Below, piece by piece: positions 26,695 to 57,740 of a stretch of DNA of 64,000 nt. The stretch's first letter is position 1; each line of letters begins with the position of its first letter. The translations under genes and the position numbers were made by a program. Source of the stretch: Candidatus Woesearchaeota archaeon (GTDB lineage: Archaea; Nanobdellota; Nanobdellia; Woesearchaeales; UBA10216); assembly GCA_016192945.1 (NCBI GenBank), contig JACPTE010000024.1, forward strand, positions 16,001 through 80,000. Direction: 5' to 3'. The notes below the pieces were generated by a model. That model was not told the origin of the DNA, ran no database searches, and worked only from the letters and a program-made list of their open reading frames with translations.

Positions 26695-26695
26695 G

Positions 26696-27328
26696 TCAAT
26701 CCAGGTATTCTTTCCTTACCTTGCCTATCGTTGTTGCCTGAAAATACTTGTCTATGCTGTCCATGTAATTGCTGATGTGGCTGAATCCTTTTTTTGCGAG
26801 CAAGTGCCTTGCTGCAAGGCTGGTGCAGCCGTTGTTGCCTCGCATTAAGCTGAGTATGCCCTCGTAGTCTGTTGGCTCTGTGATTACTGCAACCCGCAGG
26901 AAATTCTTGCATCCTGCCTCTATAAGGCTTACTCCCCCTATGTCTATTTTGTTTCTTGCGTCCTCTATTTTTCCGCTTTTGGAGGAGGCTTGCTGGAATG
27001 GGTAAAGGTTCACTGCAACCATGTCTATTTTTCTTATTCTGTGCTGCTCCATGTAATCCCTGTCATCCATGCCCCCCAGTATTCCGCAGTGGATGAGCGG
27101 GTGCAGGGTTTTGACAAGCCCTGATGGCATTTCAGGAAAGCCTGTGTAATCAGATGCCTGAACCACGTTTTTTGGGGCTGCCTTTTCAATTTCCCTGAAT
27201 GTTCCGCCGCTGCTTATTATTTTTATGCCAGGATTTATTTTTACCAGTTCTGATGCGAGGTATTTTATTCCGCTCTTTTCATAGGTGCTTATTATGGCTG
27301 TATTTACTTTAATCAGGTCATCAGTCAT
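26696..27328 (-). CDS. purH: IMP cyclohydrolase domain of PurH (MGS-like, stand-alone N-terminal half)
   Basis: AIISTYEKSG...SSGGTF...VKTLHPLIHCGIL...MVAVNLYPF. TGA stop is separated from the next ATG by a single nt. Confidence 0.85.
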   Translation of the reverse strand: MTDDLIKVNTAIISTYEKSGIKYLASELVKINPGIKIISSGGTFREIEKAAPKNVVQASDYTGFPEMPSGLVKTLHPLIHCGILGGMDDRDYMEQHRIRKIDMVAVNLYPFQQASSKSGKIEDARNKIDIGGVSLIEAGCKNFLRVAVITEPTDYEGILSLMRGNNGCTSLAARHLLAKKGFSHISNYMDSIDKYFQATTIGKVRKEYLD

Positions 27329-30348: not shown

Positions 30349-30930
30349 TCAGTCAATCTGCTCATCAATCTTTCTTCGCTTGTTTATCTCTGTCAGGAGC
30401 TTTTTTACAAGCGTGTGCGGGTTCTTGTCGTATATGACAGTTGCCCCTGTTTTCTTGTTCATTATCTTGATGAGCTGCCTTAAGTGGTCTGCTATGCCCC
30501 CCGAGCCCTGCATCACGCCTATAATCTGGCCCTCATCATAGGCGATTGTGAACTCATTGAGCGTTCCAACCCTTCCCGCGACTATTATAGTGGCATCGCA
30601 GTTGGTTACGTTCACCACATTCCTGCCCTTGAACCCGAACCCTGTGAATATTATCACATCATAGTTCTTTGTTGGAAACTTGTACCTCTTTGAGTGCTCT
30701 TCAAGGTTTCCTGCTGGCGATATTCCAATCACAAACCCGTCATTATCCTTTGCTCCTCTGGCTGCATCATCAGGGATTCCCTTGCATGCGCCGTTTATGA
30801 GTATGCAGTTGTGCCTGGCGATTTCCCTGCCTAGCTCGTATGCCAGCTTTTTTGCAGGCAAGGTTATTTTGCCCCCTGTGCCGCGCTCAATGGCAGAGCC
30901 CATTATTCCTATTTTGGGTTTCATCTTCAT
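30349..30930 (-). CDS. LOG/TIGR00725-family Rossmann-fold nucleotide-binding protein (putative nucleotide 5'-monophosphate phosphoribohydrolase)
   Basis: KIGIMGSA...GAKDNDGFVIGISP...IIFTGFGFKGRNVVNV...GGIADHL pattern of the LOG/YgdH-like fold. Start taken at internal Met. Confidence 0.7.
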   Translation of the reverse strand: MKMKPKIGIMGSAIERGTGGKITLPAKKLAYELGREIARHNCILINGACKGIPDDAARGAKDNDGFVIGISPAGNLEEHSKRYKFPTKNYDVIIFTGFGFKGRNVVNVTNCDATIIVAGRVGTLNEFTIAYDEGQIIGVMQGSGGIADHLRQLIKIMNKKTGATVIYDKNPHTLVKKLLTEINKRRKIDEQID

Positions 30931-30944
30931 GGCCTCTTTATTCT

Positions 30945-31589
30945 TTATTGTAAATTGTCTTTCTTTGCCCATTCTTCAGGGTTTCTGCTCCATTCAAGGG
31001 CAGTTCGCAGCTCTTCTTTTTTAATATATCCTTTTTCTGCTGCAATTTCCACCAGAATGCTGAAATTGCATAGGGAATTCAGCTTGCAGTTCTGGCTGTC
31101 AAAGCCTTTCCTGGCAGCCTCCATTCCATATGTGAATATGGCAATGCAGTTTTCAACAACAGCGCCCTCCTTTCTTGCGGCAGCAACAGCTGACAATGAG
31201 CTGCCGCCTGTGCTTATCAAATCCTCAATAACCAGGACTTTCTGGCCCTGGGAAACCTTGCCTTCAATCAGGTTTTCCCTGCCGTGGTCTTTTGCTTCCT
31301 TCCTGACATATATCATGGGCTTCTTCAGCTTTTCGGCAACAAGAGCAGCCCACGGGATGCTTGCAGTTGCAACACCTGCAATGACATCAGCCTCAACATT
31401 CTCCTTCCTGATTTTTTTCACAAAATACACTGCAATTGCAGAGCGCTCTGCAGGCATGGAGAGCAGCAGCCTGTTATCGCAATACACAGGGCTTAAGATT
31501 CCTGAAACAAACTTGAATGGATTTGAAGGCCTGAGGATAATGGCATTTGATTTCAGCAATATTTCAGCAACTTTCTTTTCATCAGACAT
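30945..31589 (-). CDS. pyrE: Orotate phosphoribosyltransferase
   Basis: VLVIEDLISTGGS PRTase motif. N-terminus MSDEKKVAEILLKSNAI. Confidence 0.9.
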   Translation of the reverse strand: MSDEKKVAEILLKSNAIILRPSNPFKFVSGILSPVYCDNRLLLSMPAERSAIAVYFVKKIRKENVEADVIAGVATASIPWAALVAEKLKKPMIYVRKEAKDHGRENLIEGKVSQGQKVLVIEDLISTGGSSLSAVAAARKEGAVVENCIAIFTYGMEAARKGFDSQNCKLNSLCNFSILVEIAAEKGYIKKEELRTALEWSRNPEEWAKKDNLQ

Positions 31590-34979: not shown

Positions 34980-37900
34980 TCAATACTCATCCCGCGGCTT
35001 GATTTCCAGTTCAGACTCCTTCACTGAAGTTATTGCCTCTGCCAGCATTCTTGCCAGCTGGAGGTTTGTGATAAGCGGGATTGAAAAGTCAGCCGCCTTT
35101 CTCCTTATGACATATTCATCATCCAATTCTTCCTGTGTGAAAGCGCTTGGAATGTTAATCACCAGCTCAAGCTTGTTGCCATTGGTTCCGTTCAGGAACT
35201 CAATAATGTTAGGGCTCTTGTTCTCGTGAACCTTGTATAGAATGGTTGAGCTTATTCCATTTTCCCCCAGGAATAATCCTGTGTGCTCAGTTGAAAACAG
35301 CTTGAATCCTGCATTGTCAAGGATTTTAGCGAATGGCAGGAACTTATACCTTGATTTGTCACCGCCAATGCTTACAAGGATATTCTTCTTTGGAAGCTTT
35401 GAGCCTGCTGCAATTATCGCCTTCAGATATGCATCATAAACGTTCTTTCCAAGGCAGGCTACTTCGCCGGTAGAAGCCATCTCAACGCTTGCAATGGGGT
35501 CGGCGCCTTTAAGCCTTGCAAAGGAAAACTGGGGGGATTTGACTCCTGCAAAAGAAACTCCTGCAGATGCATCTCCGTGGTCTTCATGTGATTTTCCAGC
35601 AATCACGTTTGTAGAAATCTCGGCAAAATTCTTCCCGGAAATCTTGGAAACAAAAGGAAAGCTCCTTGAAGCGCGCAAGTTGCATTCTATGACCTTTATT
35701 TCATTGTCTCTTGCAAGGAACTGTATGTTAAAAGGCCCTGTGATTTTCAATTCTGAAGCGATTCTTCTTGCAATATCCTCAATCTGCCTTGAGGTTTCAG
35801 TGTATATTTTCTTGGCAGGGAAAACCATTGTAGCGTCTCCGGAATGTGTGCCTGCGTTCTCAATGTGCTCTGTGACTGCAAACAGGGTTATCTTCCCGTT
35901 GTCAGCGACTGCATCAAGCTCAATTTCCTTTGCATTGATTATGAACTTGCTTATCACAACAGGATACTCGCTGCTGACTTTGGAAGCCTTTGTAAGGTAA
36001 AGCTCAAGGTCATTGTCGTTGAAGGCGATGTTCATTGCAGCGCCGCTCAGCACGTAAGAGGGGCGGACAAGCACGGGGTATCCTGCATTTTTTGCAAACT
36101 CTGTCGCATCATTTATGTTTGTAAGCTCTTTCCATTTTGGCTGGTCAATGTTCAGCTTGTCAAGCATCTTTGAGAATTTCTGCCTGTCTTCAGCCCTGTC
36201 AATGCTTTCAGCGCTTGTGCCGAGAATTTTCACTCCGGCAGAAGAAAGCTTCATTGCAATGTTGTTTGGAATCTGGCCGCCCATTGAGATAATCACGCCT
36301 TCTGGCTGCTCCAGCCCATAAATGTCCATCACAGTTTCAGCGCTTATTTCGTCAAAATAAAGCTTGTCGCAGACATCATAATCAGTGCTGACAGTCTCCG
36401 GATTATAGTTAATCATAATGGTTTCATATCCGATATTTCTCAATGCCCTGACTGAATTCACACAGCACCAGTCAAACTCAACCGAGCTGCCTATCCTGTA
36501 AACACCAGAGCCGATGACAATCACTTTCTTTTTTTTGCTTATGAAATCAATGTCATGCTCAGTTGCGTTATAAGTGAAGTACAGGTAGTTTGTTACAGCA
36601 GGATATTCAGCAGCGAGAGTGTCTATCTGCTTTACAAACGGGACAATATTGTTTTCTTTTCTTATCTGCCTTATTTCTGAAAAAGGAACGCCTGTGATTA
36701 CTGAAATCTGTTTGTCGCTGAAACCCTGCTTTTTGGCTCTTTCCAGAATTTCTGGAGCAGGCCCGTATGAAATCAGCTGTTTTTCAGTCTCTATTACATT
36801 CGCGATTTTATGAAGGAACCATTTGCCAATTCCGGTTTTTTTATGGATTAGCTCTATTGAATAGCCTTCCATTAAGGCCTGGACAACAGCGAACAAACGC
36901 TCATCAGTTGGAGACTCAAGCTCCTTATCCACATCATATGAAAAATCATTCCCAACCAGCCCGTGCGCACGGATGTCAAGCATCCTTACAGCTTTCTGGA
37001 TTGCCTCCTCAAAAGTCCTTCCAATCGCCATGACTTCTCCAACGCTTTTCATAGAGCTGCCTATATTTCTTGAAACATGCCTGAACTTCTTCAGGTCCCA
37101 TCTGGGGATTTTTACGACAACATAGTCAAGTGCCGGCTCAAAGCATGCTACAGTCTTCTGAGTGATTGAATTTTTTATTTCAGCCAGCGAATATCCCAGC
37201 GCCAGTTTTGCAGCGACAAAAGCAAGAGGGTAGCCAGTTGCCTTTGAAGCAAGGGCAGAACTCCTTGAAAGCCGGGCATTCACTTCTATAATCCTGTAAT
37301 CGTCAGACTCCTTGCCCAACGCATACTGGATATTGCATTCCCCAACAATGCCCAGGTGCCTAATCAGCTTAATGGAAATCTCGCGCAGATTGTGGTATTC
37401 TTTGTTGTCCAATGTCTGTGAAGGCGCAACCACGATGCTATCGCCTGTATGGATGCCCATTGGGTCAAGATTTTCCATGTTGCAGACAGTGATGCAATTG
37501 TCATATGCATCCCGAACAACTTCATATTCAATTTCCTTCCAGTGCTCAAGATACTCTTCAACCAAAATCTGGGGGGAATTTGAAAAAGCCTGCGCTGCAG
37601 TCTCAATAATGTCGGAATCATTCCTGCAGAGGCCGCTGCCCAACCCGCCGAGGGCATAAGCTGCCCTTATCATCACAGGATAGCCAAGCTTGTTTGCTGC
37701 AGTGATTGCATCAGCTATTTTGTTGACTGCATGGCTTTTGGGCGTTTTCAGGCCTATTTCACTTAATTTTTTCACAAACAATTCACGGTCTTCAGTTGCC
37801 TTTATTGCTTCAACAGGCGTGCCGAGGACCTTCACTCCGTATTTCCCAAGAACGCCAGAATCATGCAAGGCAACGCCGCAGTTTAATGCAGTCTGGCCTC

Positions 37901-38168
37901 CGAAGCCCAATAAAATGCCTTCTGGCCTTTCCTTCTTGATTATTTTTTCTACAAATTCTGGAGTGATTGGAAGAAAATATACCTTATCTGCCATTTTCTC
38001 GTCGGATTGGACTGTGGCAATGTTCGCATTTACAAGCACTACTTCTATGCCCTCCTCGCGCAAACTTTTCTCGGCTTGTGCTCCACTATAGTCAAATTCT
38101 CCTCCTTGACCAATGGAAAGGGCTCCAGATCCCAATATCAATATTTTTTTTATTTCAGTTTTTTCCAT
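34980..38168 (-). CDS. carB: Carbamoyl-phosphate synthase large subunit
   Basis: 1062 aa, two ATP-grasp repeats, N-terminus MEKTEIKKILILGSGALSIGQGGEFDYSG. Confidence 0.95.
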   Translation of the reverse strand: MEKTEIKKILILGSGALSIGQGGEFDYSGAQAEKSLREEGIEVVLVNANIATVQSDEKMADKVYFLPITPEFVEKIIKKERPEGILLGFGGQTALNCGVALHDSGVLGKYGVKVLGTPVEAIKATEDRELFVKKLSEIGLKTPKSHAVNKIADAITAANKLGYPVMIRAAYALGGLGSGLCRNDSDIIETAAQAFSNSPQILVEEYLEHWKEIEYEVVRDAYDNCITVCNMENLDPMGIHTGDSIVVAPSQTLDNKEYHNLREISIKLIRHLGIVGECNIQYALGKESDDYRIIEVNARLSRSSALASKATGYPLAFVAAKLALGYSLAEIKNSITQKTVACFEPALDYVVVKIPRWDLKKFRHVSRNIGSSMKSVGEVMAIGRTFEEAIQKAVRMLDIRAHGLVGNDFSYDVDKELESPTDERLFAVVQALMEGYSIELIHKKTGIGKWFLHKIANVIETEKQLISYGPAPEILERAKKQGFSDKQISVITGVPFSEIRQIRKENNIVPFVKQIDTLAAEYPAVTNYLYFTYNATEHDIDFISKKKKVIVIGSGVYRIGSSVEFDWCCVNSVRALRNIGYETIMINYNPETVSTDYDVCDKLYFDEISAETVMDIYGLEQPEGVIISMGGQIPNNIAMKLSSAGVKILGTSAESIDRAEDRQKFSKMLDKLNIDQPKWKELTNINDATEFAKNAGYPVLVRPSYVLSGAAMNIAFNDNDLELYLTKASKVSSEYPVVISKFIINAKEIELDAVADNGKITLFAVTEHIENAGTHSGDATMVFPAKKIYTETSRQIEDIARRIASELKITGPFNIQFLARDNEIKVIECNLRASRSFPFVSKISGKNFAEISTNVIAGKSHEDHGDASAGVSFAGVKSPQFSFARLKGADPIASVEMASTGEVACLGKNVYDAYLKAIIAAGSKLPKKNILVSIGGDKSRYKFLPFAKILDNAGFKLFSTEHTGLFLGENGISSTILYKVHENKSPNIIEFLNGTNGNKLELVINIPSAFTQEELDDEYVIRRKAADFSIPLITNLQLARMLAEAITSVKESELEIKPRDEY

Positions 38169-39837
38169 TGTGCCTCAAATACTCGCGGAATACATCAACA
38201 GCAGAGGGAGAAAGCTTTCCTTCAGCAAGAAATTCTCTTACTTCACCGATGCCCATAAACCTTCCCTCAGCGACTTCAGAACTGTCAAGGGTGATTGGGC
38301 CGTTGTAAACGCACTTGAAGACAGACCTGTGTACATTGTTCTCTTTTCTGTTTGACCTCAGCTTGAACATAAGGGAAAGCTTTGCTCCAGTAATTCCCGC
38401 CTCCTCAAAGAGCTCCCTCTTTGCAGCCTCCTCGTAACTCTCGCCAGACCTTACTGAACCGCCGAATTTGACATCCCACAATCCGGGATAAAGCTTTAGG
38501 TGGGTGGCTCTCATGTGGACAAAAAGCTCTGCTTTTGAATTGAACACCATTGTGTTTGAAGTGCGGTGAAGGAGGCTGTTTTCCATTATTTCCTTCCACG
38601 GAACACTTCGTATCACTGCATCTGACTCGTCAACAATGTCAATAAATTCCTCATGCGAATCCCTGAATTTAAGGAGATTGGTAAGCAAGTCAGGGCGATT
38701 GCTGGATATGATGTCTGGCCCAAGCCCGATCATTGAATTGATATCCTCCTCTGTATCAGGATTCCAGACTCCAACTTTAAGCCCGTTTTTCCTGCAGTCG
38801 CTCATTATCTTCCTGTTTATGAATTTAAAATTGTGAAGAAGGATGCTTGCCCCGGCATCCTTTGCCAGCTCAATATTATTCTCTGTTTTAACGCATATGA
38901 GGCCTGTTTCAAGATTGCTTATGCTCCTGGCCTTTCTTAGCCTTTCATGGTTAAACGAAATTACGACAACAGTTTTCTCTGCCTTTCCTCGTTTCACAGC
39001 ATCAACAACCTGCTCCTCAAGAGAATCATCCTTCAGCTCAACATGAAGGATAACTTTGCCTTTTATCACAGATATCACTTCATCAAGAGTGGGTATCTTT
39101 TCGCCTTTTCCTGCATCCAGCTTCCTAAGCTCAGCCAACGTAAAGTCTGACACCTTTCCCCTGCCGTTGGTAGTTCTGTCCAGTGTAACGTCATGAATGA
39201 CCGCAGCCTTGCCATCCTTTGTAATCCTCACGTCTATCTCCACCATATCTACGCCAAGCTCAATGCCCTTCCTGATTGCCCTAATTGTGTTCTCAGGCTC
39301 CAAGATTCCGGCTCCCCTGTGGCCTGTCACTTTTATCTTCTTAAGTTCAAGATATCCTTTGAATGTGACTTCTGCCCCGGGACTTAATTTCCCCCTGTCA
39401 AGATATTCTTTCATCTCTCCTTCAGCCAAAAACCTGATTTCGTCTATTTCTTCATCCTGCTTTCTTATATGGCCATCGTAAACTATCCTGTAAACCTGAT
39501 AGTTGGCATTGGCTTTTTGTGAACGGAGCTTTGCATTGAAAATGCATTCAAGCTCTTTTGCTTCAATCCCCAGCTCTTCCTTTAGCTCCCTGATTGCTGT
39601 CTCTTCGTAAGACTCCCCTGTTTCCAGAGTGCCCGCTATTCCGATATCCCACATTCCAGGGTAAACATCCTTCTTCATTGACCTTTTCTGGGCAAGGAGC
39701 TTTCCTTCAGAATTGAGAACAATAACCCTTGCAACCCTGTTAAGAAGCGCTCCTTTCCTTACCTCTGCTCTTGTAGCCTGCCCGATGACCTCACCAGCTT
39801 CATTTATCAAATCGATAATTTCTCCCATTTTATTCAC
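38155..39837 (-). CDS. Tri-domain fusion: Nudix hydrolase - glycerophosphodiester phosphodiesterase (GDPD) - Nudix hydrolase
   Basis: Nudix boxes GESYEETAIRELKEELGI and GESYEEAAKRELFEEAGI. Central HRGAG...ENT...EIDVRITKDG...HD..LDRTTNG GDPD motifs. Confidence 0.8.
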   Translation of the reverse strand: MNKMGEIIDLINEAGEVIGQATRAEVRKGALLNRVARVIVLNSEGKLLAQKRSMKKDVYPGMWDIGIAGTLETGESYEETAIRELKEELGIEAKELECIFNAKLRSQKANANYQVYRIVYDGHIRKQDEEIDEIRFLAEGEMKEYLDRGKLSPGAEVTFKGYLELKKIKVTGHRGAGILEPENTIRAIRKGIELGVDMVEIDVRITKDGKAAVIHDVTLDRTTNGRGKVSDFTLAELRKLDAGKGEKIPTLDEVISVIKGKVILHVELKDDSLEEQVVDAVKRGKAEKTVVVISFNHERLRKARSISNLETGLICVKTENNIELAKDAGASILLHNFKFINRKIMSDCRKNGLKVGVWNPDTEEDINSMIGLGPDIISSNRPDLLTNLLKFRDSHEEFIDIVDESDAVIRSVPWKEIMENSLLHRTSNTMVFNSKAELFVHMRATHLKLYPGLWDVKFGGSVRSGESYEEAAKRELFEEAGITGAKLSLMFKLRSNRKENNVHRSVFKCVYNGPITLDSSEVAEGRFMGIGEVREFLAEGKLSPSAVDVFREYLRHNGKN

Positions 39838-40339
39838 TCTTCTCAGTATATTTGTTGAATATCATGGCTCCGTCCAAGGCAAAAACGCCATTTGAAATAA
39901 GTTCTGTTACTTCAGAAGTGCTTGCGTGCCTTACTTCATCCACTTCACCCGTATGTAGCTCTATTTTTCCATTATAGACCAGCTTGAATACCCTTGTGTT
40001 CGTATTGTATGAATCAGACCTGTATTTGACATCAAACAGGTGTCTCAGCTCATTTACTGTATAACCATCTATGCCAAGCTCCTCTTTCAAGCCCCGTAAC
40101 GCAGCAGCTTCATAAGGCTCACTTCTCAATACAGTTTCAGACATGCCCAAATCCCAGCAGCCAGGGAATATATCCTTTGAGTCAGGTCTTTTCTGGACAA
40201 TGAACCTGCCAAAATAATCCACAATTATCACATATACTGTCCTGTGTATCAATGCTTTTTCATCAACATCTTTTCTTGTTGCCTTGCCAACTATTGCGTC
40301 TTCATCATTCACTATATCAATCATTTCTTCAGGAGTCAT
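39830..40339 (-). CDS. Nudix hydrolase (stand-alone, paralogous to the fused Nudix domains)
   Basis: Nudix box SEPYEAAALRGLKEELGI. 169 aa. Confidence 0.8.
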   Translation of the reverse strand: MTPEEMIDIVNDEDAIVGKATRKDVDEKALIHRTVYVIIVDYFGRFIVQKRPDSKDIFPGCWDLGMSETVLRSEPYEAAALRGLKEELGIDGYTVNELRHLFDVKYRSDSYNTNTRVFKLVYNGKIELHTGEVDEVRHASTSEVTELISNGVFALDGAMIFNKYTEKSE

Positions 40340-41118
40340 TTTTTTCTAACTGCTGCTATCAGGTAGTGTCTTTTAACAATGAATTTAGGATGCATTTCAA
40401 AAGTCCTTTTCAGAGCAGCAGCCAATATGCTGTATCTTTTTTTGAATGGGATTTCCAATATCTTTTCACTTCTCCAGGGTATTTTATAATAGTCCATGAG
40501 GAATTTCAGATTATTTTTTCCCAGGGGAAGAATGCTCCAGCGCAAAACCCTGAATTTGCCCTTTCGCAGGGCTTCCTTAAATGCCTTATTCCTGGAATTA
40601 GGGTAATCCAGATAAGCCTTCTTACCAATATCCCTTTTTTCCAACTCAACCTTAATATTTCTTTCAAGTTCCTTTTTGAACTCATTGCTTGCCTTGTCTA
40701 TGCCAATTGTTATTCCAGTCCTGTACAAAGGTACGGCAAAAATCAAAAGGCCTTTTGGCTTCAGAATCTTGCTAATTGATGAGATGGCCTTATTTATTCT
40801 TGTAAACTGCAGCACAAGGCTTGCAAATACAACATCAACAGGCTCTTTTATCATAGAAATCTTCTCAGCAGGCAGCTTTCGGATAGTGATGTTTTGCTTG
40901 CGGAATTTCATTCTGCAATATGCAACCATATCGGTGCTTTTGTCAATAGCTATTATTTTTCCTTTCTTTCCAACCTGCTTGTGCAGCAGGTTCAGGTAAA
41001 TTCCGGTCCCGCAACCCATGTCAACTACTGTATCGCCTTTTTTTATGCGATTTTTTATTTCTGATACCATGGGCTTTAGCATGAAAGCATGCTTTTTGTA
41101 CAGCTGCGATATTCTCAT
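40336..41118 (-). CDS. Class I SAM-dependent methyltransferase
   Basis: Motif I VVDMGCGTG. Rossmann-like order of motifs. Confidence 0.8.
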   Translation of the reverse strand: MRISQLYKKHAFMLKPMVSEIKNRIKKGDTVVDMGCGTGIYLNLLHKQVGKKGKIIAIDKSTDMVAYCRMKFRKQNITIRKLPAEKISMIKEPVDVVFASLVLQFTRINKAISSISKILKPKGLLIFAVPLYRTGITIGIDKASNEFKKELERNIKVELEKRDIGKKAYLDYPNSRNKAFKEALRKGKFRVLRWSILPLGKNNLKFLMDYYKIPWRSEKILEIPFKKRYSILAAALKRTFEMHPKFIVKRHYLIAAVRKK

Positions 41119-42182
41119 TTCATCATCCCCAAAAACTCATCAAACAAAAATCCAGCGTCAACAGGGCCTGGAGTTGCCTCCGGGTGAAATTGGACGCTGA
41201 AGAAAGGCTTGTTCCTGTGCCTTAGCCCCTCGTTAGTGCCGTCATTGGCATTAATGAATGATTCCTCCCATCCTGATGGCATTTTCTTCATGTTGACTGC
41301 AAACCCGTGATTCTGGGAAGTTATATAGCATCTTTTTGTCTGGATATTGCTGCATGGCTGGTTCTGGCCCCTGTGGCCATATTTCAGCTTGTACGTATCT
41401 CCGCCTGCTGCCAAGGCCAGAATCTGGTTGCCCAGGCATATCCCGAATATTGGCATTTCCAGCTTCATCGCTGAGGCAACATTCCTTATCGTTTCCCTGC
41501 ACATCTTCGGGTCCCCAGGGCCGTTGCTTATTACCATGCCATCAAAAGTTTCCCTCGTGAAGTCATAATCCCATGGAACCCTTATTACTGTGCAGTTTCT
41601 TTCAGCGAGGTTCCTGATTATGCTGTTTTTCACTCCGCAATCAACCAGCAGTATCTTCCTGCTGCCTTTTTCGTTGTAGACAATTTTCTTTTTGACAGAA
41701 ACTTCAGCAACAAGATTGCGCTTGTTTGGGTCGTCAATAGGAGCGTCTTTGTTGCTTACGGTTAATTTTCCGAGCATTACCCCCTTTTCCCTTAGCTTCT
41801 TTGTCAAGGCTCTGGTGTCAACGCCATGAATGGCAGGTATATTGTGCTCCTTCAGCCACTCTGAAAGGCTTTTGGCAGCTTTCCAGTGGCTGTAATCAGG
41901 GGAGTAATCAGCAATTATAAGGCCGCTTGCCTGGATTTTATCTGACTCAAAATGCCTTGATAGCCCAAAAGAATCCCTCTCGTCAGCAGGAACCCCGTAA
42001 TTCCCAATAAGCGGGTAAGTTAGAACAAGAATCTGCCCCTTATAGCTGGGGTCGGTCAGGCTTTCAGGATAGCCAACCATTCCTGTGTTGAACACGACCT
42101 CGCCAGAAACAGATGTGCCTGCACCGAAAGAAACGCCATTAAAACGAGTTTTGTCTTCAAGCTCAATATAGCCAGTCATCAA
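41115..42182 (-). CDS. carA: Carbamoyl-phosphate synthase small (glutaminase) subunit
   Basis: Class I GATase with GICLGNQ. CarA N-terminal domain. Confidence 0.93.
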   Translation of the reverse strand: MMTGYIELEDKTRFNGVSFGAGTSVSGEVVFNTGMVGYPESLTDPSYKGQILVLTYPLIGNYGVPADERDSFGLSRHFESDKIQASGLIIADYSPDYSHWKAAKSLSEWLKEHNIPAIHGVDTRALTKKLREKGVMLGKLTVSNKDAPIDDPNKRNLVAEVSVKKKIVYNEKGSRKILLVDCGVKNSIIRNLAERNCTVIRVPWDYDFTRETFDGMVISNGPGDPKMCRETIRNVASAMKLEMPIFGICLGNQILALAAGGDTYKLKYGHRGQNQPCSNIQTKRCYITSQNHGFAVNMKKMPSGWEESFINANDGTNEGLRHRNKPFFSVQFHPEATPGPVDAGFLFDEFLGMMK

Positions 42183-42789: not shown

Positions 42790-43683
42790 AAGCGCCATTC
42801 TTACTGGTATGCCGTTGTGAGCCTGCTGGAAGTATATGCTTTGCCTTGCCTCGTCCAGCCCGGGGTTTATCTCATCCACTCTTGGAAGCGGGTGTAGTAT
42901 TTTCATTTCAGGCTTTGCATGCCTCAGGAATGATGTATCAAGCTTGTAGAATCCCTTTACCTTTGCATAGTCCTCTGAGTTGAGGAATCTTTCCTTTTGG
43001 ATTCTGGTTACATAAAGTATGTCCAGTTCCCTGCTTACCTTCGTCAGCTCTTCCTCCTCAACATAGCTTATTCCAGAGGATTCCATCTCCTTGATGTATT
43101 TCTCAGGCAATTTGAGGGATGGGGGTGATATGAAGTAGAACTTCGGGCTGAAATGGGAGAGTGCGTGCGTGAGGCTGTGGACTGTTCTTCCGAATTTCAG
43201 GTCTCCCAGGAATCCTATGTTGAGCCCCTGCAGGGTGCCTTTTGTCTGCATTATCGTGAACAGGTCAACAAATGTCTGGGTAGGGTGCTCGTTTGTGCCG
43301 TCACCTGCGTTTATTATGGGGTTTGATGCTGCTTCGGCAGCTTTACTGACAGAGCCTGCTTCAGGATGCCTCATCACAATAACATCACAGTATCCATCAA
43401 CAATCCTTATTGTGTCGTGTGTTGTCTCCCCCTTTGAAATGGATGTATTGTCAGGCTCTGAAAATCCTATCACAGAGCCTCCAAGCCTGTGCATTGCAGC
43501 CTCAAAGCTCAGTCTTGTCCTGGTTGATGGCTCAAAGAATAGTGATGCCATTATCCTGCCTTTCAGAAGCCCTGAGTATTTGCTTCTGTCAGCCTGTATT
43601 TTGGCTGCAACATCAATTATGTGCAATAGTTCCTGCTTGGAGAAGTCCCTTATTGATATTATATCCCTGTTTTGGAAGCCCAT
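42763..43683 (-). CDS. pyrB: Aspartate carbamoyltransferase catalytic subunit
   Basis: STRTR and HPLP motifs. No pyrI follows. Confidence 0.93.
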   Translation of the reverse strand: MGFQNRDIISIRDFSKQELLHIIDVAAKIQADRSKYSGLLKGRIMASLFFEPSTRTRLSFEAAMHRLGGSVIGFSEPDNTSISKGETTHDTIRIVDGYCDVIVMRHPEAGSVSKAAEAASNPIINAGDGTNEHPTQTFVDLFTIMQTKGTLQGLNIGFLGDLKFGRTVHSLTHALSHFSPKFYFISPPSLKLPEKYIKEMESSGISYVEEEELTKVSRELDILYVTRIQKERFLNSEDYAKVKGFYKLDTSFLRHAKPEMKILHPLPRVDEINPGLDEARQSIYFQQAHNGIPVRMALLGLIIGGL

Positions 43684-43768
43684 TAAAAAAACAAGAGTAT
43701 CAAGCTTAGTTTATAAAGTTTATTTATTTTTTGTGGTGTTTGAAAAATCTGCCTATAATTTTATAAAC

Positions 43769-46768
43769 ATGAGCACCCAGTTAACGCTGATGGTCGGCAG
43801 CAGGCTTCACAATTTGTTTTTCATTGTTTGTGTCTCAATAATTGGCTTTCTGATGTTTTTTTTCATAAAGGTTTCATTCACAGGGTATGGTGTCTATGAG
43901 GAAAACCTGAAGACGTGGGATTTCAGCCAGCCAGCAGATTACTCATTTGATGCCTTATTGATAAATTTCAGCAGCGGGGTGAGGCTGCAGTCTGTCACGA
44001 TTATGACCCCTGCAACAGGCGTAACTACAAACAGGACTTCAGTCACAGCTGCCTACAAGATTGATGATGACAATGAAAGCGAGCTGGTAACTGGCAAGGT
44101 AACGGCTCTTGATGATTTATATGTCAACAATGGGAAAGATGACCTGCTTAATGTCTCTTTTGGCAGCCTGCTCAATAATGGAGACAATCTGTCGTTCTAT
44201 ATTGACCCCTCAAAGGCAGGCAAGATTCGGATTTGCCTGTCTGGAAGCTGCGCCTCCCCTGGATACGGCGAGGCCTCATTCAGCAAGTCAACTGGCTGGG
44301 TTTCAATAAGGCTTTCCAGCCTTCCTTCAGGCTCAAGCTCGTTCTTGATTGACACTGATTCAAGTGTCAAGTTTGATTATATCTATTCAAACTACACAGA
44401 CAGCTACAATTATTCTGTTCCAGGCAGTTCGTACACTGGCAGTGGAGAGATTGAGACAGCTGACTTTTCGCCATCAGGGGTTTCAATGTGGAATGTCTTC
44501 AATGCCTATGGAACCATGAACCAGCAAACATTGGCTTACAGCTACTCAACTGACTCAGGCGTGTCCTGGGTTTCAATAAGCAATGGCTCCAACATGTCAC
44601 TGCCTGCTTCGTCAGGGAAAATCAGGCTTAAGGCAGCACTCTCCAGCGATGGGACGTCAACGCCTGTGTTAAGCTCCATGAGCATATCATACTCCAGGCT
44701 GTTGTGCAGCGAGGATTGGAGGGCTGTTTATGGCACCTGCCTTGTGAATGACTCAAGATTGAAGACGTACAGTGATGCTAATAATTGCAGGACTTCCGAT
44801 GGCCTGCCTTCTGACAACAGTACTTATGTGCAGTGCGACTACTGCACGCCATCATGGGCTGAGCTGAACAGGAGCTGCCTTGTCAATGATACGCTTTTTT
44901 CATATTTCAGCGACACAAACAGCTGCTTTCCATTTACAGGGCTGGCTTCAGACAATAACCCCCCGGCAAACAAGAGTTATGCCTGCGATTATTGCACCCC
45001 GCATATAGCTTTCTTCAACACATCATGCCGGGCTGACGATACTCTGGTCATGTATGCGAACGACAGCAATGGATGTTATTCATTTACAGGGATTGCATCT
45101 GATAATGTGCCTGGCAATGTGACTTTAGGATGCGACTACTGCACGCCATCATGGGCATGCAGCAGCTATTCTTCATGCAGCATTGCTGGAAGGAGGGCAT
45201 GCACTGGTGCGGTGGATGTAAAGTCGTGCTATCAGCTTACAGGGCTTTTGGCAGATTCCTATCAGGGTAACTATTCTGAGTTTGACTCGCAGTGCTTTAA
45301 TGAAGCTGCATCTTTCATGGTTGCAGGGTTTGACATCGCCCCAAGAAGCGCTGAATCCGGGAAAAACATAACAGTGGTTGTCAAAATTTCGGACATGCCC
45401 AAGGTTAGCTCTGCATTTTTGGAAGCCTATGGCTCTGGGCGCATGAAAGCCCTTTCTGTCCAGGGAATGGCTGGCAACAGCACATTCAGGTTCATAATCC
45501 CGACCAGTTCCCTCAATAAGGGCATTTACACTATGAGAGTTAATGCATCAGACTATTACAACAACTCTGCATTGTTTGATATTGATGCCTTTGCAGTTTC
45601 AGGCTCATTAAGTTCTCTCATGAAGAGCGCTGTTGAAGGGAAGAATTTAATTTCAAACGACGCTGAAAGAAAGGTGAGCACGTCAATAAATTTCAGCAAA
45701 AGCGTGAATGGCACTGTTTTTGTAGCGACCTATAATGAAAGCACGAAGAACGAAACGCCTGCCTCCAAAAAGCAGCTCCATAAGTATGTTGAGATAATTC
45801 CTGACGAGTCAATAAGGCCCAGCATATTGGCGGTAACAATAAGGATAAACTACTCTGATGATGAGCTGTCTGTCTGGAATATTGATGCCAGCAGCCTGGC
45901 AATATACTATTACAATGAGTCCTCTTCAGTTTGGGAAAGGCAGGAATCATCTGTCAACTTGACAGGCCATTATGTAGAGGCAGTTGTAGCCCACGCAAGC
46001 CTCTTTGGGGTTTTTGGTGACCCTGCAAATGCGCCTATCGCAAGCGCTCCAAATGGTGATGGCAGCAGCGGCTCAGATGGAGGGGGCGCTGATGGATGCC
46101 AATCTATCCAAGAATGCCCTGGCTCTTCAGGTTCAGGGCCTGTGGCTAATGAAACCAACCAAAGCATAGGAAGCAGGAAGGGAGAAACTGAAAAGCTCAT
46201 TCCTGACTCTCAAAGAATCCTGGCCATTTCAGGCAACACCACTGCAAGAGCCAATGCCTCAGGATTGGCTGGAAAGGGAGCTGGCTGCGATTACAGCATG
46301 GTTATTGACCTCCCTTCAAATATTTCAATGGTAAGGGAAAATTACTTTATTGGAAGGTTCTCAAGCTCAGGCCAGTGCAGCATTGATGAGGTTGAGATGG
46401 TGCTCAAGGGGCCTGTAACTGATATTGTGTCAATAAATTACAGTACGGGCTCTTCAGGCTTCTTGAGGCTGAATTCAAAGCAGGCAAACGCCAATGCTCT
46501 CAGGGGGCTGCCTGTTGGCCTGATTGTCAACTCACGGGATATCCCGAAGAGGACTTATACAGGCAGCTTAATAGTCAGGGGAATTGTCAACAGGAGTGTT
46601 GTGTCTGAAGAATCCCTGCCCTTGTCTGTTGAGATCGGCGAATCCAGGGCTGGCAGCTCATTTGAAGTCCCGCCTGCTGCATGGATTGTTGCAGCAGGAT
46701 GCATAGTCAGCATCATAAGCCTGCTGCTCCTTCGGAGAATTGCCAAAAGGAAAAAGAAAGGAAGATAG
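43769..46768 (+). CDS. Large (~1000 aa) cysteine-rich-repeat cell-surface protein with N-terminal signal/anchor and C-terminal TM anchor plus basic tail
   Basis: Upstream part of the 1199 aa ORF overlaps pyrB antisense. Start at MSTQLT after the divergent promoter. Four ~45 aa repeats containing CDYCTP(S/H)WA...SC...DDTL..Y.D.N.C..FTG.ASDN. Many N-x-S/T sequons. C-terminus AAWIVAAGCIVSIISLLLLRRIAKRKKKGR. Confidence 0.8.
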   Translation: MSTQLTLMVGSRLHNLFFIVCVSIIGFLMFFFIKVSFTGYGVYEENLKTWDFSQPADYSFDALLINFSSGVRLQSVTIMTPATGVTTNRTSVTAAYKIDDDNESELVTGKVTALDDLYVNNGKDDLLNVSFGSLLNNGDNLSFYIDPSKAGKIRICLSGSCASPGYGEASFSKSTGWVSIRLSSLPSGSSSFLIDTDSSVKFDYIYSNYTDSYNYSVPGSSYTGSGEIETADFSPSGVSMWNVFNAYGTMNQQTLAYSYSTDSGVSWVSISNGSNMSLPASSGKIRLKAALSSDGTSTPVLSSMSISYSRLLCSEDWRAVYGTCLVNDSRLKTYSDANNCRTSDGLPSDNSTYVQCDYCTPSWAELNRSCLVNDTLFSYFSDTNSCFPFTGLASDNNPPANKSYACDYCTPHIAFFNTSCRADDTLVMYANDSNGCYSFTGIASDNVPGNVTLGCDYCTPSWACSSYSSCSIAGRRACTGAVDVKSCYQLTGLLADSYQGNYSEFDSQCFNEAASFMVAGFDIAPRSAESGKNITVVVKISDMPKVSSAFLEAYGSGRMKALSVQGMAGNSTFRFIIPTSSLNKGIYTMRVNASDYYNNSALFDIDAFAVSGSLSSLMKSAVEGKNLISNDAERKVSTSINFSKSVNGTVFVATYNESTKNETPASKKQLHKYVEIIPDESIRPSILAVTIRINYSDDELSVWNIDASSLAIYYYNESSSVWERQESSVNLTGHYVEAVVAHASLFGVFGDPANAPIASAPNGDGSSGSDGGGADGCQSIQECPGSSGSGPVANETNQSIGSRKGETEKLIPDSQRILAISGNTTARANASGLAGKGAGCDYSMVIDLPSNISMVRENYFIGRFSSSGQCSIDEVEMVLKGPVTDIVSINYSTGSSGFLRLNSKQANANALRGLPVGLIVNSRDIPKRTYTGSLIVRGIVNRSVVSEESLPLSVEIGESRAGSSFEVPPAAWIVAAGCIVSIISLLLLRRIAKRKKKGR

Positions 46769-47991: not shown

Positions 47992-49263
47992 TTAATAATA
48001 CTTCTTAATTTTATCAGATTTAGTTTTTACCTGATTGGCGAGCTTCATCTGGAAGCTCCACAGCTCAATGAATCCTGCACTCGCATTCTGGTTGAAAGAG
48101 TAGTCTTTCATGAATGTAACAAGGTTCTTGTCATAAAGCGCATTTTCAGAGTAAATAGCAACAGCTTCTGCCTTGCCCTTGTAAAGCTTTACAGTGACTG
48201 AGCCATTAACCTTTTCATTCAGCTTATTGCAGAAAATGTTTAGTTCATCTATCAACGGCTCAAGCCAGAATCCCCCATAGCAAAGATATGCCCATTTAGT
48301 GTCCACAATGCTCTTGAACTCGTTCTCCTGCCTTGTGCAGACATATTTCTCAATTACCTTGTGCGCCTCCAATATGATGGCTGCTGCCGGCATTTCGTAA
48401 ATGTCACGGTTCTTAAGACCAACAACCCTGTCTTCAATATGATAGCTTATCCCAATGCCGTGCTTTGCTCCTATCTTTGCCAATAACAGGATAATATCAG
48501 AAAGCTTCATTATTTTCCCTTCAACAGCAACAGGAAGTCCTTTCTCAAAATCAATCTTTATTAATTCGGGCTTGTCTGGAGCATTCTCAGGGGTGTTGCA
48601 TACAGCGAGTATTTTTTCAGCAGGAGGGATAAGACTGGGATCCTCAATTTCACCTGATTCTGCACTTGAGCCCCACATATTGTCATCATAGCTGTAAGGC
48701 TTGTCCTTGGTTGCTTTTACGGGAATGTTATTTTTCTTGGCATATTCAATCTCCTCATCCCTTCCCATGCTCCATTCACGGACTGGAGCGATGACTTTTA
48801 TCTTTGGACTGATGGTTATGGCAGTTGCTTCAATCCTCACCTGGTCATTTCCTTTTCCTGTGCATCCGTGTGCAATCGCATCTGCGCCTTCCTTTTCAGC
48901 TATTTCAACAGCAATCTTTGCAAGCAATGGCCTGCCCATTGCAGTTGCAAGATGATAAGCGCCCTGATATGAGGCATTGGCTTTTATGCCCTTTGCAACA
49001 TAATTATTAGCAAACTCGTCCTTGGCATCGACTACAAAAGCCTTTTTTGCACCAAGCTTTAATGCCTTTTTCCGGATTTCCTCCAAATCGTCACTATGCT
49101 GCCCAAGATCAACTGTGAGCGCAATTACCTCTGCATTATATTCCTCCTGAATCCACTTAAGCATTACAGAAGTGTCCAATCCGCCTGAATAAAGCAAAAC
49201 TACTTTCTTGACCTGTCCTTTTTCAGCTTCATAGCTTGCAACTTTGGAATATTCTTTTTTCAT
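47992..49263 (-). CDS. argG: Argininosuccinate synthase
   Basis: LLYSGGLDTSV PP-loop. ArgG length. Confidence 0.93.
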   Translation of the reverse strand: MKKEYSKVASYEAEKGQVKKVVLLYSGGLDTSVMLKWIQEEYNAEVIALTVDLGQHSDDLEEIRKKALKLGAKKAFVVDAKDEFANNYVAKGIKANASYQGAYHLATAMGRPLLAKIAVEIAEKEGADAIAHGCTGKGNDQVRIEATAITISPKIKVIAPVREWSMGRDEEIEYAKKNNIPVKATKDKPYSYDDNMWGSSAESGEIEDPSLIPPAEKILAVCNTPENAPDKPELIKIDFEKGLPVAVEGKIMKLSDIILLLAKIGAKHGIGISYHIEDRVVGLKNRDIYEMPAAAIILEAHKVIEKYVCTRQENEFKSIVDTKWAYLCYGGFWLEPLIDELNIFCNKLNEKVNGSVTVKLYKGKAEAVAIYSENALYDKNLVTFMKDYSFNQNASAGFIELWSFQMKLANQVKTKSDKIKKYY

Positions 49264-57648: not shown

Positions 57649-57740
57649 TTTAATCAGCTCAACTCTAACCTCTCTATATATCTGGCGGCAATTTCTTGTA
57701 CCAAAACACTTTTATTTCAGGAATCCTGCCCAAAATTCAT

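What the first reader, a model, noticed from the sequence alone, without database searches (positions are those of the whole stretch)
38155..40339. Nudix-GDPD-Nudix tri-domain fusion plus an adjacent paralogous stand-alone Nudix
One 560 aa polypeptide carries two complete Nudix boxes (GESYEETAIRELKEELGI and GESYEEAAKRELFEEAGI) flanking a glycerophosphodiester phosphodiesterase domain (HRGAG/ENT/EIDV/HD..LDRTT). A third, similar Nudix protein is encoded immediately upstream. The combination of a pyrophosphohydrolase and a phosphodiesterase suggests sequential breakdown of a nucleotide-linked glycerophospho compound (for example CDP-glycerol, CDP-archaeol-type lipid precursors, or ADP-ribose derivatives). 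I do not recognise this domain architecture as described.
Basis: seen in the sequence. Interest (0 to 1): 0.65.

Follow-up and report, generated by a model that had tools for sequence, protein, structure and literature searches.

The report
Nudix-GDPD-Nudix fusion between carA and carB
This is a real but very rare three-domain hydrolase in a small Woesearchaeota-type archaeon, made by fusing neighbouring genes of an undescribed Nudix/phosphodiesterase gene set that in this lineage sits between the two carbamoyl-phosphate synthetase genes; its substrate is still unknown.

Summary
ORF 38155-39837 (-) is one uninterrupted 560-aa (probably 557-aa) protein. It has a Nudix domain with a canonical box, a GDPD domain with all catalytic residues, and a second Nudix domain with a canonical box (AF2 pLDDT 93.6). 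A 169-aa Nudix paralogue lies directly upstream, but its box is non-canonical (E..RG instead of G..RE).

The genes sit inside carA | SAM-methyltransferase | Nudix | Nudix-GDPD-Nudix | carB, all overlapping or 1 nt apart, within a pyrimidine/arginine/purine biosynthesis supercluster.

In about 14 related loci, where named Woesearchaeota/Nanoarchaeota, a 'C-type' YfcD/DR_0079-like Nudix lies between carA and carB. It occurs alone or with variant Nudix, GDPD, methyltransferase or HAD genes, as separate genes or in other fusions.

Only two 50%-identity clusters among 1.84 billion representatives carry Nudix and GDPD together. I found no literature on the fusion or on a Nudix inside carAB.

My best guess at function (confidence about 0.35) is a pyrimidine-linked NDP-X pyrophosphatase plus a glycerophosphodiesterase that recycle CDP-activated head-group compounds. 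No data show the substrate.

Verdict: a new architecture built from known enzyme families, of moderate interest.

The parts
41115..42182 (-). carA (CPSase small, glutaminase subunit); its stop overlaps the methyltransferase start by 4 nt
   Evidence: ORF coordinates. CPSase_sm_chain/GATase is called for the orthologous genes in L001, L002 and L004. tblastn identity to L098 and L099 is 64-75%.
40336..41118 (-). Class I SAM-dependent methyltransferase (260 aa) with a conserved C-terminal extension of about 130 aa. It is a recurrent accessory gene of the module.
   Evidence: Pfam Methyltransf_31/11/25, E about 1e-17. Orthologues sit between carA and the Nudix genes in L001 (72% id) and L093/L094 (52% id). 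L098 has a truncated remnant.
39830..40339 (-). Stand-alone 'A-type' Nudix paralogue (169 aa), YfcD-like
   Evidence: Pfam NUDIX E 5e-9. NCBIfam YfcD 84 bits, below the cut-off of 152. PDB 2fkb (YfcD) E 7e-16.
40070..40138 (-). Variant Nudix box ETVLRSEPYEAAALRGLKEELGI: the first Gly is replaced by Glu, and the Glu of 'RE' by Gly
   Evidence: The same double change occurs in 15 of 49 related domains, with no mixed cases.
38155..39837 (-). Nudix-GDPD-Nudix fusion gene (560 aa from GTG 39837; probably 557 aa from ATG 39828). Its stop overlaps the carB start by 14 nt.
39343..39837 (-). N-terminal Nudix domain ('B', residues 1-165) with a canonical box at 39565-39633
   Evidence: Foldseek match to YfcD (2fkb), TM 0.89-0.91 normalised to the target.
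38662..39342 (-). GDPD (UgpQ-type glycerophosphodiester phosphodiesterase) TIM-barrel domain, residues 166-392, with catalytic H173/R174/E182/E200/D202/H215/E267/K269 present
   Evidence: Pfam GDPD E 4e-38 over the full profile, positions 1-244. PDB 2pz0 E 1e-41, with aligned catalytic motifs. Foldseek TM 0.90, rmsd 1.3 A. H173, P181, E182, E200 and H215 are nearly invariant in a 47-sequence alignment.
38155..38661 (-). C-terminal 'C-type' Nudix domain (residues 393-560) with a canonical box at 38392-38460. This is the constant element of the carA-carB module across the lineage.
   Evidence: 854 clusters at E<=1e-20; the named ones are all Woesearchaeota or Nanoarchaeota.
34980..38168 (-). carB (CPSase large subunit, 1062 aa)
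   Evidence: Orthologues are annotated with CPSase_L domains. 60-69% identity to L098 and L099.

Best explanation
**Anatomy (shown).** The 560-aa protein is cytoplasmic, with no N-terminal signal-like or hydrophobic segment visible in the sequence. It arose by fusing three adjacent genes of a conserved gene module that, in Woesearchaeota/Nanoarchaeota-type (DPANN) archaea, sits between carA and carB and is translationally coupled to them.
- The constant member of the module is a canonical YfcD/DR_0079-type Nudix ('C-type').
- The variable members are a variant-box Nudix ('A-type'), a UgpQ-type GDPD, a SAM methyltransferase and, once, a HAD hydrolase.

**Mechanism (inferred).**
- The two canonical Nudix domains hydrolyse the pyrophosphate bond of a nucleoside-diphosphate-X compound to NMP + phospho-X. 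The substrate is most likely pyrimidine- or cytidine-based: CDP-alcohols such as CDP-glycerol, CDP-choline, CDP-ethanolamine or CDP-inositol, or CDP/CTP themselves.
- The GDPD domain hydrolyses glycerophosphodiesters to glycerol phosphate + alcohol.
- The two activities work in parallel rather than strictly in sequence. They dismantle CDP-activated and glycerophospho-linked head-group compounds and return CMP to the pyrimidine pool, whose de novo pathway is encoded by the same operon.
- The upstream A-type Nudix probably pairs with a canonical domain, as in the A-C tandem proteins of relatives. It is either an altered-metal-site or a non-catalytic partner.
For: **Domains and intact catalytic motifs:**. 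Confident fold: pLDDT 93.6, pTM 0.72.

**The same parts occur as separate genes or in other fusions between carA and carB:**
- L001: MT | A-B-GDPD-C
- L098: MT remnant | A' | GDPD | A | C
- L091/L092: A | GDPD | C
- L006: A-A' | GDPD | C | HAD
- L090: GDPD-C
- P0005 contig: Nudix | GDPD-C
- L003: A-C'-C
- L002, L004/L005: A-C
- L086: C'-A plus an HNH-repeat gene
- L093/L094: MT | C
- L095/L096: degenerate A | C
- L008, L099: C alone

Most gene junctions in these loci overlap by 4-44 nt; L086 and L093 have short gaps before carB.

**Pyrimidine link:**
- The operon also carries pyrB, pyrD, pyrK, pyrC, pyrE and pyrF.
- The only biochemically characterised relative that the PDB searches hit besides YfcD is DR_0079 (E 7e-13, 2e-10 and 3e-7). 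[quoted passage not shown] 2008, as cited in PMC5158307).

**Nudix plus phosphodiester-hydrolase pairing recurs:** E. coli yfcD lies 57 nt downstream of, and co-directional with, the phosphodiesterase gene yfcE.

**Accessory enzymes:** a methyltransferase and a HAD-IA hydrolase are the enzyme classes used in phospho-alcohol head-group metabolism. This rests on established knowledge of phosphoethanolamine methyltransferases and PHOSPHO1-type phosphatases and is inference only.
Against: - There are no biochemical data for any member, and YfcD itself has no known substrate.
- The C-type Nudix occurs between carA and carB without any GDPD in about half of the loci (L002, L003, L004, L008, L086, L093, L095, L099). 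Its core role therefore cannot depend on a phosphodiesterase.
- The order of the modules differs between loci, and fusion states vary. This fits fusion by stop-codon loss in a very compact genome as well as it fits catalytic coupling.
- Homing-endonuclease-type genes occupy the same gap in L086 and L092, so the gap may simply tolerate insertions.
- One C-type relative (L007) sits next to ribosomal protein and eIF2-gamma genes, not carAB.
- More distant di-Nudix relatives sit in mevalonate-pathway clusters.
- The DR_0079 link is at sub-family level only (about 30% identity).
- I could not inspect inter-domain geometry.
Confidence: 0.35

Rival explanations
1. **Pyrimidine nucleotide pool enzyme with an unrelated passenger.** The C-type Nudix, and the B domain, are (deoxy)pyrimidine NDP/NTP pyrophosphatases. 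Possible roles are dCTP/dUTP to dCMP/dUMP supply for thymidylate synthesis, sanitation of aberrant pyrimidine nucleotides, or control of the UMP/UTP/CTP levels that feed back on CPSase. GDPD, the methyltransferase and HAD are functionally unrelated genes that accreted at the same spot.
For: - The C-type Nudix alone is the minimal and commonest form between carA and carB.
- DR_0079, a sub-family relative, acts on CDP/CTP/dCDP/dCTP.
- NCBIfam also gives weak Nudix-box-level hits to the pyrimidine (d)NTP pyrophosphatases NudG and NudI.
- The operon is a pyrimidine biosynthesis operon.
Against: - GDPD is found with the Nudix genes in at least 7 independent loci and is fused to them in at least three different ways. 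That is more than expected for a random passenger.
- The NudG and NudI hits are far below their cut-offs.
- I did not test whether these genomes lack dut/dcd.
Confidence: 0.25
2. **Hitch-hiking.** The carA-carB gap is a permissive, well-expressed insertion site. The Nudix, GDPD and methyltransferase genes are housekeeping hydrolases with no functional tie to CPSase or pyrimidines. The tri-domain protein is a by-product of genome compaction, formed by loss of stop codons between overlapping genes.
For: - Selfish-element genes occupy the same gap: an HNH-repeat protein in L086 and a LAGLIDADG ORF in L092.
- Module order and fusion state vary freely.
- The window and L001 differ at the A/B junction only by a stop codon and a small indel.
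- L098 carries a decayed methyltransferase.
Against: - The C-type Nudix keeps this position down to 39% identity and in 14 of the 15 contexts I looked at.
- It is well conserved, with 42 invariant positions among 8 sequences.
- Tight start/stop overlaps with carA and carB imply co-translation.
Confidence: 0.15
3. **Regulatory or structural accessory of CPSase.** The Nudix domains, especially the variant A-type, act mainly as nucleotide-binding sensor modules. They are made stoichiometrically with CarA and CarB and modulate the enzyme.
For: - The genes are translationally coupled and placed exactly between the two subunit genes in many genomes.
- A-type domains carry a systematically altered box and degenerate further in L095, where R is replaced by Y.
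- Non-enzymatic Nudix homology proteins are known (PMC5389931).
Against: - The B and C domains keep every Nudix-box catalytic residue.
- carB retains its own C-terminal MGS-like allosteric domain.
Confidence: 0.12
4. **Isoprenoid function.** The Nudix domains are type-1 isopentenyl-diphosphate isomerases, or isoprenoid-diphosphate hydrolases.
For: - JGI names several C-type homologues 'isopentenyl-diphosphate isomerase'.
- NCBIfam IDI models hit at 101 bits, against a cut-off of 127.
- The distant di-Nudix relatives P0024 and P0123 lie in mevalonate-pathway clusters with GHMP kinases, an MVD-like gene and an isopentenyl-phosphate-kinase-type gene.
Against: - By comparison with the E. coli IDI sequence, recalled from memory and not aligned with a tool here, the positions matching the catalytic Cys67 and Glu116 and the metal ligands His25 and His69 are not conserved. 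The motifs are WDVKFGGSV and KENNV in C, and WDIGIAGTL in B (sequences).
- The scores are below the IDI cut-offs.
- The context is pyrimidine, not mevalonate.
- The canonical hydrolase box REUXEE is present, where IDI has RRxxxE (PMC5389931).
Confidence: 0.05
5. **Assembly or sequencing artefact.** A hidden frameshift or a chimeric contig joins separate genes.
For: One homologue, P0004, does look chimeric at its C-terminus.
Against: - The reading frame is continuous.
- A 100%-identical protein occurs in an independent assembly (P0001), and a 74%-identical protein with the same architecture on another MAG (P0002).
- GDPD-C fusions occur in three further lineages.
- The AF2 model is confident through both linkers.
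Confidence: 0.01

Closest known systems
E. coli YfcD (PDB 2fkb), putative Nudix hydrolase
   Same: It is the best solved-structure match for all three Nudix units (E 1.7e-21, 4.9e-15 and 7.3e-16), with Foldseek TM 0.89-0.91. It shares the N-terminal 'VDIVxExD' extension. Its gene also lies next to a phosphodiesterase gene, yfcE.
   Different: YfcD is a single-domain protein with no known substrate. It is only about 26% identical, is not fused to anything and is not in a car/pyr operon. Its neighbour YfcE is annotated simply as a phosphodiesterase; from memory it is a metallophosphoesterase, not a GDPD.
Deinococcus radiodurans DR_0079 (PDB 1q27/2o5f)
   Same: It is in the same YfcD-like sub-family (E 7e-13 to 3e-7). 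[quoted passage not shown] That fits the pyrimidine-operon context here.
   Different: It is single-domain and bacterial, with low identity and no operon link to carAB. The primary paper could not be read here.
Cytosolic UgpQ-type GDPDs (T. tengcongensis 2pz0; T. kodakarensis 4oec; P. furiosus 7e0v)
   Same: The GDPD domain is 39% identical to 2pz0 over the whole barrel, with rmsd 1.3 A and TM 0.90. All catalytic and metal residues are conserved.
   Different: The known enzymes are stand-alone proteins of about 230-250 aa. Here the barrel is embedded between two Nudix domains.
Type-1 isopentenyl-diphosphate isomerase (IDI)
   Same: It belongs to the same Nudix clan and is a neighbour of the YfcD sub-family. 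NCBIfam and PDB give sub-threshold hits, and automated pipelines name homologues IDI.
   Different: The catalytic Cys/Glu and the His metal ligands appear absent. This comparison with E. coli IDI is by eye and from memory. The hydrolase-type REUXEE box is present, and the context is pyrimidine rather than mevalonate.
Tandem di-Nudix proteins of the same archaeal lineage (P0008, P0009, P0121, P0124 and others)
   Same: They share the same A-type and C-type domains and the same position between carA and carB.
   Different: They have no GDPD domain and are 320-340 aa long. They are themselves uncharacterised and, as far as I could find, undescribed.

Membership tests
Nudix hydrolase superfamily (PF00293) | Nudix fold | tested here: met
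   Pfam NUDIX E 9e-34 (two stretches) for the fusion and E 5e-9 for the 169-aa protein. The AF2 model is confident and superposes on 2fkb with TM about 0.9.
Nudix hydrolase superfamily (PF00293) | Canonical Nudix box GX5EX7REUXEEXGU (catalytic and metal-binding residues) | tested here: met
   Met for both domains of the fusion, at residues 69-91 and 460-482. Not met for the upstream 169-aa protein, whose box is EX5EX7RGUXEEXGU.
YfcD equivalog (NCBIfam NF011922) | Whole-protein score at or above the curated cut-off (152 bits) for one YfcD-like domain | tested here: inconclusive
   The fusion scores 160.7 bits, but only as the sum of two domains. The 169-aa protein scores 84 bits, below the cut-off. 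This is sub-family resemblance, not demonstrated equivalence.
Type-1 IDI (TIGR02150 / NF002995) | Score above the cut-off, plus catalytic Cys67/Glu116 and His25/His32/His69 metal ligands (E. coli numbering, from established knowledge) | tested here: not met
   Scores are 100.8 bits (cut-off 127) and 73.8 bits (cut-off 105.8). By eye, against the recalled E. coli IDI sequence, the Cys67, His69 and Glu116 equivalents are Gly/Ala, Ser/Thr and Asn in the domain sequences.
GDPD family (PF03009) | Full-length match to the profile and to the TIM-barrel fold | tested here: met
   132 bits against a cut-off of 23.6, covering profile positions 1-244 of 244. Foldseek against 2pz0 gives TM 0.90 and rmsd 1.3 A.
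GDPD family (PF03009) | Catalytic His-Arg, Glu/Asp metal triad, second His and Glu-x-Lys | tested here: met
   H173 R174, E182, E200 and D202, H215, E267 and K269 are present and align with 2pz0 and 4oec. H173, E182, E200 and H215 are nearly invariant in 47 sequences.
GDPD family (PF03009) | Glycerophosphodiester hydrolysis activity and substrate range | not testable with these tools
   This needs enzymology.
Periplasmic or secreted GlpQ-type GDPD | N-terminal signal peptide and extracytoplasmic location | tested here: not met
   The protein begins MNKMGEIIDLINEAGEV, with no hydrophobic leader. The GlpQ equivalog NF008354 scores 32 bits against a cut-off of 254.
Anti-phage defence systems (PADLOC) | Match to a defence-system protein model in a defence-like context | tested here: not met
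   There are only generic domain-level hits: PDC-S07 at 59 bits for the Nudix domains and mad2 for the methyltransferase domain. The context is a biosynthetic operon.

The most novel reading that the evidence does not exclude
The C-type Nudix, with its A-type partner, GDPD and methyltransferase accessories, is an integral and previously unrecognised component of the carbamoyl-phosphate synthetase/pyrimidine pathway in Woesearchaeota/Nanoarchaeota. It would be made in step with CarA and CarB, and would either sense or trim a pyrimidine nucleotide effector or proofread a pathway-derived metabolite. The E..RG Nudix box would then be a genuine alternative metal-site design, with the carboxylate moved from the helix to the first box position, rather than decay.
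Probability: 0.15. Interest if true: 0.75.

Novelty: new variant of a known kind. Interest (0 to 1): 0.5.

Why it matters
- The YfcD-like branch of the Nudix superfamily has had a solved structure since 2006 (2fkb), yet no assigned substrate. A conserved, translationally coupled position inside a pyrimidine/carbamoyl-phosphate operon, together with recurrent partners (GDPD, methyltransferase, HAD), gives that branch its first concrete set of candidate substrates to test.
- DPANN archaea are thought to depend on hosts for many building blocks. A dedicated nucleotide/phosphodiester recycling module wired into one of the few biosynthetic operons they keep would bear on how they balance nucleotide and head-group pools.
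- The perfectly covarying G..RE / E..RG box pair is a small natural experiment on Nudix metal-site architecture.

Tried and rejected
- **Artefact or frameshift:** rejected.
- **IDI function:** rejected on sub-threshold scores and on apparently missing catalytic residues, compared by eye with the recalled E. coli IDI sequence.
- **Defence-system membership:** only generic PADLOC hits.
- **Literature:** searches for YfcD, a Nudix+GDPD fusion, Nudix+CPSase+archaea, DPANN+glycerophosphodiester and Woesearchaeota+Nudix returned nothing relevant. The DR_0079 primary paper is not held.
- **Methyltransferase structure:** PDB sequence hits are only uncharacterised SAM methyltransferases.
- **JGI metagenome scan:** only 2 of 80 loci were close relatives, and both lie between carA and carB. 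The other 78 (32-48% identity) are distant YfcD-like genes with no carA or carB hit in the flanks available, many of them on contigs of only 1-3 kb. The association is therefore clade-specific.
- **Origin of the B domain:** the NJ tree puts it in the A clade, but pairwise scores to A- and C-types are equal at 38-45%. I make no claim of a box 'reversion'.
- **Inter-domain geometry:** it could not be examined because model coordinates and PAE are not exposed.

Full report
**1. Observation**

ORF 38155..39837 on the minus strand is one uninterrupted 560-codon frame starting at a GTG. The upstream gene ends ...GAA TAA. One base later comes ATG GGA GAA (M-G-E-I-I-D), so the real start is probably the ATG at 39828, giving 557 aa. 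P0001, a 100%-identical 557-aa protein from an independent Logan assembly, starts there too.

Pfam finds GDPD at residues 173-384 (E 4e-38, the full profile) and two NUDIX stretches (E 9e-34). An HMM of the family places the Nudix domains at residues 1-168 and 391-559.

Both Nudix boxes, at residues 69-91 and 460-482, fit GX5EX7REUXEEXGU exactly. They align with the catalytic residues of solved GDPDs (2pz0 E 1e-41, 4oec E 6e-33).

An AlphaFold2 model built on a 47-sequence alignment is confident throughout (mean pLDDT 93.6, pTM 0.72). Its parts superpose on T. tengcongensis GDPD (TM 0.90, rmsd 1.3 A) and on E. coli YfcD (TM 0.89-0.91).

The upstream ORF 39830..40339 is a 169-aa Nudix paralogue, 38% identical to the N-terminal domain and 34% to the C-terminal domain.

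**2.

The genes lie in a tightly packed minus-strand operon:
- carA (41115-42182)
- SAM methyltransferase (40336-41118)
- Nudix-169 (39830-40339)
- Nudix-GDPD-Nudix (38155-39837)
- carB (34980-38168)

The junctions overlap by 4, 4 and 14 nt, or are separated by 1 nt.

On either side are pyrB, and pyrD, pyrK, pyrC, pyrE, a SLOG/LOG-like gene and pyrF. Further out are argF, argJ, argG and argH, and most of the purine pathway.

The organism is most likely a Woesearchaeota-type DPANN archaeon:
- The window's argG is 77-83% identical to its best hits, and the named ones among these are 'Candidatus Woesearchaeota archaeon' at 77-80%.
- The named homologues of the C-terminal Nudix are all Woesearchaeota or Nanoarchaeota.
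- Related genes lie on contigs of 1.09 and 1.25 Mb.

**3. Comparative anatomy**

The C-terminal ('C-type') Nudix is common as a stand-alone protein of about 166 aa, with 854 clusters at E<=1e-20. In 14 of the 15 contexts I examined it lies between carA and carB.

| Locus | Genes between carA and carB |
|---|---|
| L008, L099 | C |
| L093/L094 | MT, C |
| L095/L096 | degenerate A, C |
| L002, L004/L005 | A-C |
| L086 | C'-A, HNH-repeat gene |
| L003 | A-C'-C |
| L090 | GDPD-C |
| L091/L092 | A, GDPD, C |
| L006 | A-A', GDPD, C, HAD |
| L098 | MT remnant, A', GDPD, A, C |
| L001 | MT, A-B-GDPD-C |
| window | MT, A, B-GDPD-C |

Hyphens join domains within one protein; commas separate genes. One further contig encodes a stand-alone Nudix followed by a GDPD-C fusion (P0005).

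The one exception is L007, where a 48%-identical Nudix sits beside S6e and eIF2-gamma genes.

The tri-domain protein is therefore the fused state of a gene set that exists unfused in relatives. The window and L001 differ at the A/B junction only by a stop codon and a small indel.

The association is clade-specific. In a JGI metagenome scan, only the two close hits had carA and carB flanks. The 78 distant YfcD-like hits showed none in the flanks available.

**4. Rarity**

An exhaustive HMMER pass over 1.84 billion 50%-identity representatives found only P0001 and the fragment P0004 with Nudix and GDPD together. About a dozen clusters are tandem di-Nudix proteins.

The 5.8-billion-protein search found six Nudix+GDPD proteins, all within this clade. 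A more divergent Nudix-GDPD fusion scoring below about 140 bits would have been missed by the top-150 list.

Full-text searches returned no description of such a fusion or of a Nudix gene inside carAB.

**5. The Nudix paralogues**

All three units are YfcD/DR_0079-like.

A domain-level alignment of 49 related domains shows a perfect two-state pattern at two box positions:
- 34 domains have Gly at box position 1 and Glu in 'RE'.
- 15 domains have Glu at position 1 and Gly in place of that Glu ('RG').
- There are no mixed cases.

The 169-aa protein is of the second kind, and so is the first domain of almost every tandem protein. In L095 this type has decayed further, with R replaced by Y.

From memory of the MutT literature, not checked here, the backbone carbonyl at box position 1 and the Glu of 'RE' both lie at the metal/general-base site. 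The covariation could therefore be a relocation of a carboxylate rather than simple loss. Alternatively, the A-type may be a non-catalytic partner of the C-type in a pseudo-heterodimer.

The B domain of the fusion is about equally distant from the A- and C-types (38-45%). I leave its origin open.

**6. Function**

Shown:
- Two canonical Nudix pyrophosphohydrolase domains and one catalytically complete UgpQ-type GDPD in a leaderless, hence cytoplasmic, protein.
- Co-translation with CPSase and pyrimidine genes.
- Recurrent association with a methyltransferase and, once, with a HAD-IA hydrolase.

Inferred:
- The Nudix domains cleave NDP-X to NMP + P-X, probably with a cytidine or pyrimidine nucleotide. 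The grounds are the operon context and the reported CDP/CTP/dCDP/dCTP preference of the only characterised sub-family relative, DR_0079 (reference in PMC5158307).
- The GDPD domain cleaves glycerophosphodiesters.

A Nudix cut of CDP-glycerol leaves no diester. The two activities are therefore better seen as parallel routes that dismantle CDP-activated and glycerophospho-linked head-group compounds and return CMP and glycerol phosphate.

In E. coli, yfcD lies directly downstream of the phosphodiesterase gene yfcE. This is an independent instance of the same pairing of activities.

I give this reading about 0.35. The main rivals are:
- a pyrimidine (d)NTP/(d)NDP pool enzyme with GDPD as a passenger (0.25);
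- pure hitch-hiking in a permissive gap that also hosts homing-endonuclease genes (0.15);
- a regulatory accessory of CPSase (0.12);
- an IDI-like role (0.05), contradicted by sub-threshold scores and apparently missing catalytic residues, although distant di-Nudix relatives do sit in mevalonate clusters.

**7. Comparison with known families**

The domains are members of PF00293 and PF03009 by every feature I could test.
- They are not demonstrable equivalogs of YfcD. Per-domain scores are below the cut-off, and YfcD has no known function in any case.
- They are not IDI.
- They are not GlpQ-type secreted GDPDs.
- They are not part of any PADLOC defence system.

The architecture is new. The chemistry is probably conventional.

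**8. Verdict**

This is a real, very rare fusion and a new variant built from known enzyme families. The more interesting result is the conserved, undescribed Nudix-centred module between carA and carB in Woesearchaeota/Nanoarchaeota, together with the covarying Nudix-box variant.

The fusion itself looks like a lineage-specific joining of neighbouring genes, and no unusual mechanism is required. The score stays moderate because the module offers the first testable substrate hypothesis for the YfcD-like branch.

Noticed in passing
window 40070-40138, and 15 domains in related proteins (e.g. P0008 d1, L006:1586-2614, L098:3273-3812): Two Nudix-box positions covary perfectly. 34 domains have G..RE and 15 have E..RG, with none mixed. 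This suggests either a relocated metal-site carboxylate or a conserved pseudo-enzyme partner.
   Followed up: partly
window 4184-52810 (minus strand): Almost the whole window is one co-directional biosynthetic supercluster. It holds guaA, purB, purL, SHMT, purD, purF, purH, purA, pyrF, pyrE, pyrC, pyrK, pyrD, carB, carA, pyrB, argH, argG, argF and argJ. That is unusually complete for a DPANN-type genome.
   Followed up: partly
window 25423-27328: purH appears split into two adjacent ORFs. ORF 26696-27328 carries the MGS domain plus the first ~60 positions of the AICARFT profile, and ORF 25423-26694 carries the rest. This is either a genuine split or a frameshift.
   Followed up: no
window 30349-30972: A SLOG/LOG-like protein (Pfam LDcluster4; TIGR00725 at 87 bits, below its cut-off) is encoded inside the pyrimidine operon between pyrF and pyrE. 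It is another nucleotide-processing-type gene of unknown role.
   Followed up: no
window 47992-49263: After the Woesearchaeota hits (77-83%), the next-best argG relatives are CPR/Patescibacteria proteins at 69-72% identity that carry an extra MGS domain. This hints at DPANN-CPR gene exchange.
   Followed up: no
window 43169-46768 (+): A large plus-strand ORF has repeated Cys-rich 'CDYCTP' modules, Ser/Asn-rich stretches and a C-terminal hydrophobic anchor, with no Pfam hit for 43871-46768. It interrupts the minus-strand arg/pyr cluster, and its annotated 5' end overlaps pyrB on the other strand.
   Followed up: no
window 57740-57828: ARAGORN calls an 89-nt tRNA of undetermined identity with an odd two-base anticodon call. 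It may be an intron-containing archaeal tRNA.
   Followed up: no
L086:2569-3855; L092:2103-3392: Homing-endonuclease-type genes sit in the same carA-carB gap in relatives: an HNH_repeat protein in L086 and a LAGLIDADG ORF directly before, or within the start of, carB in L092. The gap may be an insertion hot spot, or carB may carry an intein.
   Followed up: partly
L006 (CAZDCW010000015.1) compared with L091 (GCA_016192905.1): L006 is titled 'uncultured Methanosarcinales archaeon'. By eye, its A-type Nudix and GDPD are roughly 90% identical to those of a Woesearchaeota MAG. This suggests mis-binning, possibly reflecting co-occurrence with methanogens.
   Followed up: partly
L087:6001-6984; L088:6001-6987: More distant tandem di-Nudix proteins (P0123, P0024) lie in mevalonate-pathway clusters with GHMP kinases, an MVD-like gene, an isopentenyl-phosphate-kinase-type gene and a HAD gene. 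This branch of the same sub-family may act on isoprenoid diphosphates.
   Followed up: partly
P0004 (489 aa); L098:2868-3266: P0004 is a GDPD-Nudix protein whose last ~150 residues switch to unrelated sequence, so it probably comes from a chimeric contig. In L098 the module's methyltransferase is an internally deleted 132-aa remnant.
   Followed up: no
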